Source of the DNA: Eledone cirrhosa
Lineage: Eukaryota
Direction of reading: 5' to 3'
Assembly: GCA_964016885.1 (NCBI GenBank)
Contig: OZ024741.1
Coordinates: forward strand, 224,006,001 to 224,070,000
Length of the DNA stretch: 64,000 bases
The notes under the pieces were generated by a model. It was not told the DNA's origin. It was given only the letters and a program-made list of their open reading frames with translations, and made no database searches. Position numbers and translations under genes: made by a program. Positions 10,834 through 11,026 of this stretch are shown in pieces (the first letter of the stretch is position 1; each line of letters starts with the position of its first letter).

Positions 10834-11026
10834 ACGAAGGAAATGTGGTAAGGAACCAGATGGACCATAACGCACCAAAGTACTCAATACTTAGGATAGT
10901 AGAGTGGGTAATAGGAACGAGTAGGACCCCGAGGCTGAGCTCAAGCCGTTTCGACGGCTAATTCTGGTCCAGAATTAGCCGTCGAAACGGCTTGAGCTCA
11001 GCCGTCGGGGTCTTACTCGTTCCTAT
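10834..11026 (-). mobile_element. Family D copy 2 with a 57-bp fold-back
   Basis: Arms 10911-10967 and 10969-11026 with a 1-nt centre; (TA)n on both sides. Confidence 0.85.

What the first reader, a model, noticed from the sequence alone, without database searches (positions are those of the whole stretch)
10834..11026. Family D: three copies folded back at the same point, keeping only the 3' half of a hammerhead
Copies at 6765-6911, 10834-11026 and 38517-38686 all break at about the same CCAG(A)ATTAGCC position. They contain GUC-GAAA-CGGC(U)...(A)GCCG-UC-GGGGUC, which corresponds to the 3' strand of stem II, a full stem III, a GUC triplet and one strand of stem I, with no CUGANGA. A shared breakpoint in three dispersed copies implies that the ~150-190-bp hairpin unit itself is being amplified. 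Speculation: it is either a substrate strand cleaved in trans by a partner RNA carrying ..CCCC-CUGANGA-GAC.., or a mini-element that no longer needs the ribozyme.
Basis: partly seen in the sequence, partly recalled or inferred. Interest (0 to 1): 0.72.

Follow-up and report, generated by a model that had tools for sequence, protein, structure and literature searches.

The report
Truncated foldback copies of Penelope-like retroelement
These short hairpin-shaped repeats are stubs of a Penelope-like jumping gene whose terminal repeat holds a complete hammerhead motif; the stubs keep only its second half, likely because copying ran off the start of the element's RNA, so the finding is an ordinary by-product that also gives clues to how such elements insert.

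Summary
The three copies are real and the half-hammerhead is not chance. It is a relic, not a trans-cleaved substrate.

Longer copies in the same genome carry the missing half in cis: ACCCC-CUGAGGA (or UUGAGAA)-stem II-GAAA-stem III-GUC|GGGGU. That is a complete type I hammerhead. It sits in the terminal repeat of a 3.1-kb Penelope-like element (PLE) whose ORF has RT and C-terminal GIY-YIG motifs, Hydra-clade-like.

Family D copies are extreme 5'-truncations of this repeat, inserted into (TA)n. Most are two head-to-head partial copies. One ends at the element's "body end". The other ends 80 nt further on, at the "tail end". Of 53 sampled pairs with scorable ends, 53 had one of each. Genome-wide, 22,940 arms stop at the body end and 22,708 run on into the tail.

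The break points differ between copies but pile up within about 20 nt, with a sharp limit at one A inside stem II. This matches published PLE biology: an inverted truncated copy, a tail at one end, and two internal reverse-transcription start sites.

My inference, untested, is that this A is the RNA 5' end, probably a promoter start site inside the ribozyme's stem II.

Earlier notes of this scan on this genome concern other PLE families, not this one.

The parts
6772..6832 (+). Copy 1, truncated end of the PLE terminal repeat (reference positions 650-710). It holds the 3' strand of stem II, GAAA (6790-6793), stem III, GUC (6810-6812) and the GGGGUC strand of stem I. It starts at AGTCCAG.
   Evidence: positions mapped on the full-length copy L051
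6833..6911 (+). Copy 1 'tail'. These are the about 80 nt that follow the terminal repeat in the full-length element. Here the tail ends at ..CCTTTGTTA next to (CA)n.
6762..6771 (.). Junction of copy 1 with unrelated upstream DNA. There is only a 10-nt, 90% pseudo-arm and no real foldback.
   Evidence: similar upstream sequence is joined to Family D at other loci
10834..10910 (-). Copy 2 tail (reverse complement); its outer end abuts (TA)n.
10911..10967 (-). Copy 2 tail-bearing arm, with the half hammerhead on the minus strand.
10969..11026 (+). Copy 2 tail-less arm. It ends at ..GTTCCTAT (the body end) next to (TA)n. The apex base is 10968.
38517..38594 (-). Copy 3 tail (reverse complement); its outer end abuts (TA)n.
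38595..38647 (-). Copy 3 tail-bearing arm. It has one mismatch in GCAGTCGAAAC, and its 5' end is at about reference position 658.
38648..38687 (+). Copy 3 tail-less arm. It starts at about reference position 649. A 23-nt deletion between the two GCCGTC repeats has removed GAAA and stem III.

Best explanation
Family D copies are extremely 5'-truncated insertions of a Penelope-like retroelement that carries a complete type I hammerhead motif in its terminal repeat, and the shared break is likely the 5' end of the element's RNA, where reverse transcription would run off.

Shown directly:
- The full-length element is 3,118 bp. Its order is terminal repeat with hammerhead, an 80-nt 'tail', a 768-codon ORF, then the terminal repeat again.
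- A mini copy keeps only the last 61 nt of the repeat, with or without the tail.
- Nearly every insertion, mini or long, is a head-to-head pair in (TA)n. One copy ends at the body end (..CCTAT) and the other at the tail end (..GTTA).
- 5' ends have a sharp limit at one A (AGTCCAG) inside stem II.

Inferred, following the in vitro work of Frangieh et al. 2024:
- The element's protein would cut both strands of the (TA)n target.
- It would start cDNA on each strand at one of two internal sites of the RNA. These are the body end and the tail end.
- On a transcript that begins at that A, both cDNAs would run off after 61 and 141 nt and be joined 3' end to 3' end. That gives a palindrome plus a tail.
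- The stubs lack the CUGANGA strand and the sequence upstream of the A, so they are predicted to be inert.
For: Parent element and its hammerhead:
- The pattern CTGANGA..CGTCGAAACGGC has 171 genome hits and the reversed control has 0. Eight of the 100 listed are one conserved 71-nt string, CUGAGGA-stem II-GAAAC.
- L041 and L042 read ACCCC-CUGAGGA-..-GAAA-CGGCU..GCCG-UC|GGGGU.
- Fifteen parent copies all keep the core. The 3-8 pair is U-A in 10 and C-G in 5, and unpaired in none.
- The unconstrained minimum-energy fold gives the three-way junction.

Full-length element:
- L051 has an inverted copy, a partial direct copy, the tail, the ORF and the terminal repeat.
- The ORF shows DKT, YRDDG, CxCX5C and VIY..YIG motifs, read by eye.
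- It has 1,427 homologues. Atlas look-alike clusters carry GIY-YIG and RVT_1.

Insertion layout:
- In 64 sampled non-parent loci there are 56 head-to-head pairs: 53 body end plus tail end, 0 body+body, 0 tail+tail, and 3 with an unclear end.
- Genome-wide, 22,940 arms stop at the body end and 22,708 run into the tail. Controls gave 0.
- Only 206 arms run past the tail into the ORF leader.
- An internal AUAUAU site is never used as an end: 5 hits against 7 in the control, although 3,196 copies contain it.

5' ends:
- 42 of 54 tail-end copies and 52 of 58 body-end copies start at reference positions 645-665.
- Of about 27 solo copies read from the listing, 14-15 start at 649-651, and none clearly starts upstream of 647.
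- T-runs of 9 or more abut the A directly in 31 of 35 listed loci.
- Tandem jump junctions also fall at that A.

The two arms of one locus: 12 of 35 pairs are identical and 28 of 35 differ at 3 or fewer of 47 nt. The mean is 2.9, against 5.6 between loci.

Literature:
- Craig et al. 2021 describe an inverted truncated copy, a tail at one end, (TA)n targets and the Hydra clade.
- Frangieh et al. 2024 report that both strands are cut and extended, that there are two internal RT start sites, and that the tail is the stretch between them.
- Cervera and De la Pena 2014 report U3-A8 cores and truncated single motifs.
Against: - No RNA data: no listed sequencing run is on record as RNA, so the RNA 5' end is inferred from DNA copies only.
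- Pfam finds no family in the ORF even at E up to 10, and a PDB sequence search is blank. RT and GIY-YIG rest on motifs read by eye and on look-alike clusters.
- Rfam finds no hammerhead in the parent. No hammerhead is among the 28 hits at E up to 10.
- The fold's energy is no better than that of shuffles (z 0.24).
- Stems I to III hardly vary among the 15 copies, so covariation support is limited to the 3-8 pair. Cleavage is untested.
- Some apex types recur within one subfamily (for example L067, L072, L113). That could mean some hairpin units were themselves copied.
- What enforces one body end plus one tail end per insertion is unknown. In vitro, Frangieh et al. saw no difference in start site between the strands.
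- My sample required an exact 16-mer at reference positions 664-679, so 5' ends downstream of 664 on both arms are not sampled.
Confidence: 0.85

Rival explanations
1. The hairpin-plus-tail unit is itself a non-autonomous element. In this reading it is transcribed through and copied as a whole, and apex differences arise later by slippage or deletion at the palindrome centre.
For: - Identical apex types recur within one subfamily: L067, L072 and L113, and also L079, L085 and L108.
- Left arms often carry internal deletions yet keep both termini: L013, L014, L017, L023 and L025.
- Palindrome centres are known to be unstable (general knowledge).
Against: - The same asymmetric junction occurs in five subfamilies that differ at several arm positions, and both arms always carry the same variants. 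Copying a hairpin as a unit would pass on one-sided changes.
- Each subfamily matches a different full-length parent.
- Long insertions build the same one-tail, head-to-head layout with unrelated inner junctions.
- Chimeric pairs exist in which the arms come from different families (L037).
- In six pairs the tail-bearing copy stops inside the tail, so the other arm cannot be a copy-back of it.
- The minis lack everything upstream of the A, including the TATA-like box.
Confidence: 0.12
2. The half hammerhead is a substrate strand that a partner RNA carrying ..CCCC-CUGANGA-GAC.. cleaves in trans.
For: - Split hammerheads work in vitro (general knowledge).
- Transcripts of long copies do contain the complementary strand ACCCC-UUGAGAA-GAUCGGCUAUUU.
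Against: - The missing strand is found in cis, directly upstream, in every long copy examined.
- The truncation is explained by the insertion process.
- In a foldback RNA, the stem II strand would be locked in a perfect hairpin of about 57 bp.
- No separate family carrying only the CUGANGA half turned up among the 100 listed of 171 pattern hits.
Confidence: 0.02
3. The pile-up of 5' ends reflects reverse transcriptase stalling at the stem II hairpin of a longer RNA, not an RNA 5' end.
For: - The break lies inside a predicted helix of stem II.
- Reverse transcriptases pause at structure (general knowledge).
Against: - The distal helix is short, AU-rich and bulged. The GC-rich proximal helix just before it is passed without a pile-up.
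- Long untemplated runs abut the same A in 31 of 35 listed loci, and template-jump junctions fall there too. Both are typical of run-off at a template end.
- The A sits in TCAGTC/TTAGTC with TATTTAAA 29 nt upstream. These are initiator-like and TATA-like matches; the consensus motifs are recalled, not tested.
Confidence: 0.2
4. A DNA transposon of MITE or foldback type that duplicates TA targets.
For: A long inverted repeat with TA-rich flanks on both sides.
Against: - The two outer ends are not inverted repeats of each other: one is the body end and the other is the tail end.
- The arms are colinear with the end of a retroelement that has an RT-like ORF.
- 5'-truncation series and tandem arrays exist.
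Confidence: 0.01

Closest known systems
Penelope-like elements, Hydra clade (Craig, Yushenova, Rodriguez, Arkhipova 2021, PMC8557442)
   Same: [quoted passage not shown]
- Shared motifs: DKT instead of DKG, RWR (RWK-like), a CxCX5C linker, and CxxC and CxH near the C-terminus.
- A canonical hammerhead in the pseudo-LTR.
- Insertion into (TA)n.
- Partial tandems, an inverted 5'-truncated copy, and a tail at one end.
   Different: - The tail is about 80 nt here, not 30-40.
- I could not settle whether the CCHH motif is absent, as it is in Hydra.
- The clade was not tested by phylogeny.
- Mini copies outnumber long ones by roughly 100 to 1 at the tail (22,708 against 206).
[quoted passage not shown] 2024, PMC11167929)
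   Same: - Both target strands are used.
- There are two fixed start sites inside the RNA, near the repeat-ORF junction.
- The tail is the stretch between the two sites.
- The target is AT-rich.
- Hammerhead cleavage plays no visible part in defining the ends.
   Different: - In this genome each insertion shows one start site per side (53 of 53 pairs). In vitro, no strand difference was seen.
- The clade and the target [(TA)n] are different.
- The run-off at a fixed RNA 5' end is my inference, not part of that work.
PLE hammerheads (Cervera and De la Pena 2014, PMC4209133)
   Same: - Type I motif in the pseudo-LTR.
- A U3-A8 core variant beside C3-G8.
- The G10.1-C11.1 pair with an extra base at the start of stem II.
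- Many single and opposite-strand motifs arising from truncated copies.
   Different: - Stem III here is a stable 6-bp hairpin, not the 1-2 bp palindromic form that needs dimers.
- Stem II is very long (43-45 nt between its proximal strands) and holds TATA-like and initiator-like sequences.
Animal (non-LTR) retrozymes
   Same: They derive from PLE terminal repeats. One 8-unit, 299-nt tandem array with a complete hammerhead per unit exists in this genome (L142).
   Different: Family D mini copies lack the CUGANGA strand and are dispersed foldbacks, not tandem self-cleaving units.
Twin-priming inversions of LINE-1
   Same: Two cDNAs primed on the two strands of one target give a head-to-head structure with 5' truncation.
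   Different: In LINE-1 both copies come from one poly(A)-primed RNA, and the inversion is the exception. Here it is the rule, with two distinct fixed start sites.

Membership tests
Penelope-like element (parent of Family D) | Single ORF with reverse transcriptase and GIY-YIG endonuclease | tested here: inconclusive
   Motifs read by eye in P0001: YRDDG, and VIYQC..YIGLT at the C-terminus. There are 1,427 homologues of about 700 aa. Atlas look-alike clusters carry GIY-YIG and RVT_1 on part of their members. However, Pfam finds nothing at E up to 10 and the PDB sequence search is blank.
Penelope-like element (parent of Family D) | Pseudo-LTRs from partial tandem copies, with the hammerhead inside them | tested here: met
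   In L051, a 495-bp direct repeat (3915-4409 and 7033-7527) flanks the ORF, and each repeat holds the hammerhead. Tandem arrays with a 3,543-bp period also exist.
Penelope-like element (parent of Family D) | Inverted 5'-truncated copy next to the 5' end, and a tail at only one end | tested here: met
   L051, L052 and L053 show it. Of the 53 sampled pairs with scorable ends, 53 have one tail end and one body end.
Hydra clade of PLEs | DKT motif, RWK motif, CxCX5C linker, CxxC/CxH, no CCHH, canonical hammerhead, (TA)n target, length under about 3 kb | tested here: inconclusive
   DKT, RWR, CNCPDRSIC, CNLC and CKH are present (compared with section 11 of Craig et al.). The hammerhead and the (TA)n target are met. 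The unit is 3,118 bp. Absence of CCHH could not be judged without the published alignment, and no tree was built.
Hammerhead ribozyme, type I (parent copies) | CUGANGA, GAAA and UH around stems I, II and III in that order | tested here: met
   All 15 aligned parents have them. The 3-8 pair is C-G or U-A. 89.9% of cells are paired, against 25-54% when the partners are slid. The minimum-energy fold gives the junction. Rfam's models do not report it. Cleavage was not tested.
Hammerhead ribozyme (Family D mini copies) | Presence of the CUGANGA strand in any of the six block orders | tested here: not met
   No block C lies within 300 nt of the copies on either strand. Rfam gathering on the window reports no hammerhead. 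The top 150 of 207 Rfam E-value hits on four loci contain none; the other 57 were not shown.
Retrozyme (tandem self-cleaving repeat) | Tandem units each with a complete hammerhead | tested here: not met
   The window copies are dispersed and lack block C. A true array of this kind exists elsewhere in the genome (L142).
MITE / foldback DNA transposon | Terminal inverted repeats at both outer ends, with a target-site duplication | tested here: not met
   The outer ends are ..CCTAT on one side and ..GTTA after an 80-nt unique tail on the other. A target duplication cannot be read inside (TA)n.

The most novel reading that the evidence does not exclude
The abnormally long stem II of this PLE hammerhead houses the element's core promoter, with a TATA-like box at -29 and an initiator at the A of AGTCCAG. 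Transcripts would therefore start inside the ribozyme. The 5' copy of the hammerhead would be born without its CUGANGA strand and could not cut, while the 3' copy would be whole. The tens of thousands of foldback stubs would be 'strong-stop' products. A dimeric RT-endonuclease would prime both strands of a (TA)n break, one protomer at each of two internal sites of the same RNA leader. Both cDNAs would run off the capped end 61 and 141 nt later. On this reading the stubs are a natural, genome-wide footprint of the PLE insertion mechanism.
Probability: 0.4. Interest if true: 0.7.

Novelty: new member of a known kind. Interest (0 to 1): 0.45.

Why it matters
The finding has an ordinary explanation: these are truncated copies of a Penelope-like retroelement, not a new trans-cleaving RNA system.

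The family is still useful. How PLEs insert is poorly understood, and the first in vitro data date from 2024. This genome offers about 23,000 natural insertion products that show three things:
- The two internal start sites are used one per side of each insertion.
- An equally UA-rich internal site is never used.
- cDNA synthesis ends at one nucleotide inside the hammerhead.

If that nucleotide is the transcription start, it would give hammerheads in PLE repeats a concrete logic, because only the downstream copy would be complete in the RNA.

The stubs also add tens of thousands of perfect palindromes of about 120 bp, embedded in (TA)n. That bears on assembly errors, miRNA-like false positives and genome stability in this animal.

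Tried and rejected
- Rfam gathering on the window gave only a mir-130-like hit at 33021-33101. That hit is the apex of another PLE foldback and is a false lead.
- Rfam E-value searches on copies and on a parent gave generic hairpin/miRNA hits from palindromes and (TA)n, and no hammerhead.
- I looked for a circularly or non-circularly permuted hammerhead in the mini copies, prompted by earlier notes and Eckert et al. 2023. None was found.
- I considered a Helitron or Helentron end, because of the hairpin near one end and the AT target. I dropped this by reading the termini: there is no TC..CTRR end and no subterminal repeats.
- I considered hammerhead cleavage as the source of the 5' ends. The cleavage site (after reference position 690) is 40 nt downstream of the pile-up. 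Only L099 among the 64 sampled loci starts near it, at 687.
- 'Any UA-rich site can prime' was rejected.
- A simple snap-back of one cDNA was rejected as the general mechanism. Six pairs have a tail-bearing copy that stops inside the tail. Inter-family chimeras exist. Long insertions have non-palindromic inner junctions.
- RNA evidence: no RNA holder was listed by the look-up of sequencing runs. The six runs are of unknown kind and are kept as contigs, so I did not lay them.
- The notes look-ups by place (near) and by sequence returned nothing.
- Pfam and PDB sequence searches of the ORF were blank.

Full report
OBSERVATION

GCCGTCGAAACGGC occurs 4 times in the window with up to 2 mismatches. 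The expected number is 0.01, and 0 of 100 shuffles reached 4.

- Copy 2 is a true foldback. It has a reverse-complement tail at 10834-10910, arms at 10911-10967 and 10969-11026, and (TA)n on both sides.
- Copy 3 has the same layout. Its two arms begin 9 nt apart, and one arm has a 23-nt deletion.
- Copy 1 is a single copy. It starts at AGTCCAG (6772) next to unrelated DNA and is followed by (CA)n.

No CUGANGA lies near any of the three. A script that looked for all six orders of the three hammerhead blocks found none in these copies. With loose settings it found 20 block combinations, all at 32.7-34.2 kb, in other repeat families. Rfam at gathering threshold reports no hammerhead in the window.

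THE FAMILY IN THE GENOME

The window lies in a 3.0-Gb genome. The 147-nt unit has at least 1,853 first-look candidates there.

In 29 loci that I read, the usual form is as follows:
- (TA)n;
- an arm of about 60-68 nt;
- a short apex;
- the same arm inverted;
- an 80-nt unique tail;
- (TA)n.

Left arms often carry deletions, and the apex varies. So the 'break point' is the centre of a palindrome that belongs to the insertion.

The exact 16-mer CGTCGAAACGGCTTGA, preceded by W 63 nt upstream, occurs 38,651 times, and the reversed control gives 0.

THE MISSING HALF EXISTS IN CIS

A pattern asking for CTGANGA within 4-80 nt upstream of CGTCGAAACGGC has 171 hits, against 0 for the control. Eight of the 100 listed are one conserved 71-nt string.

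L041 and L042 read ..AAUACCCC-CUGAGGA-G..stem II..C-GAAA-CGGCU..GCCG-UC|GGGGUCAU..

In the unselected listing, 13 of 100 lines are such long arms. There the core reads UUGAGAA or UUGAUAA.

Fifteen long copies were aligned.
- All keep GAAA, A15.1-U16.1, C17 and the stems.
- The tertiary 3-8 pair is U-A in 10, C-G in 5 and unpaired in none.
- The stems themselves hardly vary, so they add little covariation. 89.9% of cells are paired, against 25-54% when the partners are slid.

A U3-A8 core was described for PLE hammerheads by Cervera and De la Pena 2014 (passages read). The unconstrained minimum-energy fold of the parent RNA is the expected three-way junction, but its energy is no better than that of shuffles (z 0.24). 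Rfam does not report it even at E up to 10, plausibly because of the very long stem II. Self-cleavage has not been tested by anyone here.

THE PARENT ELEMENT

L051 holds a full-length insertion. Its parts, in order, are:
- an inverted partial copy at 1708-2537, whose outer end is the tail end;
- a direct partial copy at 2535-4409;
- the tail at 4410-4492;
- a 768-codon open frame at 4433-6739;
- the 3' region with the hammerhead, ending ..CCTAT at 7527;
- then (TA)n.

The unit is 3,118 bp. The 'tail' of Family D is therefore simply the first 80 nt that follow the terminal repeat in the full-length element.

The ORF shows RWR, HSDKTGNLY, YRDDG, CNCPDRSIC, VIYQC..YIGLT, CNLC and CKH. Compared with section 11 of Craig et al. 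2021 (read whole), these fit the Hydra clade of PLEs: DKT, RWK, CxCX5C, CxxC/CxH, a C-terminal GIY-YIG, a canonical hammerhead, (TA)n targets and short elements. I read these motifs by eye.

The profile and sequence searches give the following:
- Pfam is blank.
- The PDB sequence search is blank.
- 1,427 unnamed homologues exist.
- Language-model look-alike clusters carry GIY-YIG, RVT_1, HTH_animal and DUF8422 on part of their members.

I could not judge the CCHH motif, and I built no tree. The clade call is therefore tentative. The PLE call rests on the whole architecture.

LAYOUT OF INSERTIONS

I fetched 64 non-parent loci from the first 100 lines. These are ordered by position, not by structure. 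I mapped them on a reference cut from L051. On that reference the stem I strand is at 602-606, the core at 607-613, AGTCCAG at 650, CGTCGAAAC at 664, cleavage falls after 690, the body end is at 710 and the tail is 711-790.

- There are 56 head-to-head pairs. Of these, 53 combine one copy ending at the tail end with one ending at the body end. None has two body ends or two tail ends. Three have an unclear end. Sixteen copies are unpaired.
- Genome-wide, 22,940 arms end at the body end plus (TA)n and 22,708 run on into the tail, with controls at 0.
- Only 206 arms run past the tail into the ORF leader.
- Long insertions obey the same rule, with unrelated inner junctions: L051, L052 and L053, L117 with L118, and L116 with L071. 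So does an inter-family chimera, L037.
- The ends are specific. The internal CCAUAUAU site is followed by (TA)n in 5 places, against 7 in the control, while 3,196 copies read through it.

WHERE THE COPIES BREAK

In the sample, 42 of 54 tail-end copies and 52 of 58 body-end copies start at reference positions 645-665, and eight start at 617-644. The sample required positions 664-679 to be intact, so only the upstream side of this distribution is informative.

Junction strings differ widely between loci.

Among about 27 solo copies that follow (TA)n directly, read by eye from the 35 distinct loci in the first 100 lines:
- 14-15 start at 649-651;
- 12 start at 652-664;
- none clearly starts upstream of 647.

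Runs of 9 or more T abut the A650-type start directly in 31 of the 35 loci listed. The natural TTT before the A leaves 647-650 ambiguous in those cases.

Two tandem arrays have their jump junction at the same A: L131/L132 (about 906|650) and L142 (630|650).

I read this as a discrete template end at which reverse transcriptase runs off and adds untemplated A. The A lies in TCAGTC or TTAGTC, and TATTTAAA lies 29 nt upstream. These match the initiator and TATA consensus as I recall them. This is a lead, not a test.

ARE HAIRPINS COPIED AS UNITS?

Mostly not, in my reading.
- The two arms of a locus are near-identical. Of 35 pairs, 12 are identical and 28 differ at 3 or fewer of 47 nt. The mean is 2.9, which includes two indel cases, against 5.6 between loci.
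- Both arms always carry the variants of one of several full-length parents.
- The same asymmetric junction (..CTGGACT|GAATTAGC..) is seen in five loci of different subfamilies.
- Unit copying would pass on one-sided changes, and it does not explain the long insertions.

Recurrent apex types within one subfamily leave room for some unit copying. I give that rival 0.12.

MECHANISM

Craig et al. 2021 describe the following for PLEs (passages):
- high 5' truncation;
- partial tandems;
- an inverted truncated copy at the 5' end;
- a 30-40-bp tail, often at only one end;
- (TA)n targets for Naiad and Hydra.

Frangieh et al. 2024 (parts 1-2 of 4 read) show the following in vitro for an Anolis Poseidon element:
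- the protein cuts and extends both strands of an AT-rich target;
- reverse transcription starts at two adjacent internal sites of the RNA near the repeat-ORF junction;
- the tail is the stretch between the two sites;
- the protein is predicted to be a dimer;
- hammerhead cleavage is not needed;
- the promoter is thought to lie in the repeat.

The body end and the tail end of Family D fit these two start sites. The head-to-head pairs fit the priming of both strands.

My additions are inferences:
- In vivo, each insertion uses one site per strand.
- Both cDNAs usually come from one RNA or from sister RNAs.
- On a transcript that starts at A650 they run off after 61 and 141 nt and are joined at their 3' ends.
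- Six pairs in which the tail-bearing copy stops at 731-764 would fit a collision with the complex sitting at the other site.

What enforces one site per side is not known. In vitro, no strand difference in start site was seen.

COMPARISON AND NOVELTY

The object is a new member of a known kind. It is a truncated, inverted, one-tailed PLE insertion that keeps part of a pseudo-LTR hammerhead.

I did not find three points in the papers I read: the strict 53-of-53 pairing, the 1:1 genome count, and a fixed cDNA end at an initiator-like A inside stem II. Two literature searches on PLE transcription start sites and on PLE target-primed reverse transcription listed no paper that makes these points by title or abstract. 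I read only the papers named above, and no supplements.

Earlier notes of this scan on the same genome report a rearranged hammerhead in other (TA)n-inserted PLE families. I did not test that claim.

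Noticed in passing
window 32803-33240: Another (TA)n-flanked foldback with the same layout: a tail of about 86 nt on the left, then two inverted arms. Each arm has a complete minimal type I hammerhead (CUGAUGA at 33134 on + and at 32988 on -). The Rfam mir-130 hit at 33021-33101 is simply the apex of this palindrome.
   Followed up: partly
window 33253-33665: A third (TA)n-flanked family. The right arm has a full hammerhead (CUGAAGA at 33564, GAAA at 33597). The left, inverted arm begins inside CUGAAGA, so it too keeps only a 'half hammerhead'. 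There is a tail of about 94 nt on the left and a loop of about 130 nt.
   Followed up: partly
window 33992-34060: A further type I hammerhead-like motif (CUGAUGA at 33992, GAAA at 34045) just after a long (TA)n tract.
   Followed up: no
L142 (G000:C2:356029600-356032500, minus strand): Eight tandem units of exactly 299 nt. Each unit is made of reference positions 649-911 plus 592-630, and each has a complete hammerhead with a shortened stem II. The array ends at the tail end plus (TA)n. It looks like an animal retrozyme derived from this PLE.
   Followed up: partly
L131/L132 (G000:C1:27008017-27011418): [quoted passage not shown] It then jumps from about position 906 straight back to the A of AGTCCAG, giving a 257-nt head-to-tail repeat.
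   Followed up: partly
G000:C1:91473262-91487453 (listing): Five long arms on one strand, spaced 3,542-3,543 bp apart, which is a tandem array of near full-length units. Similar arrays appear in the listing at C1:437200226-437210963 and C2:320551596-320558828.
   Followed up: no
L035 and L047, about 60-100 nt upstream of the Family D copy: A different repeat that ends ..GATCACTGATGAAGGACTAACTTTAYTCA just before (TA)n. A CUGAUGA sits at the very end of that element. It may be the family with a rearranged hammerhead reported in earlier notes of this scan.
   Followed up: no
L013, L015, L004 (left of the copy) and L017 (right, inverted): Another interspersed repeat (..GTATTGAGTACCTTACTTACTGTGGTTA..CCCGGGA..) that also ends at (TA)n. 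Several unrelated families in this genome share the (TA)n target.
   Followed up: no
L051 486-1628, minus strand: A 380-codon open frame with Pfam RVT_1 (E 1.5e-15) and a PHD finger (E 1.8e-06). It is an unrelated retroelement lying beside the PLE insertion.
   Followed up: no
L068, L070, L031 and the loci listed: Runs of 9-18 T sit between the upstream DNA, or the other arm, and the A of AGTCCAG. There are 1,457 pattern matches genome-wide, a count that includes overlapping matches.
   Followed up: partly
L133, L134: A further parent subfamily whose hammerhead core reads UUGAAAA, that is U3-A8 with A at position 7.
   Followed up: no
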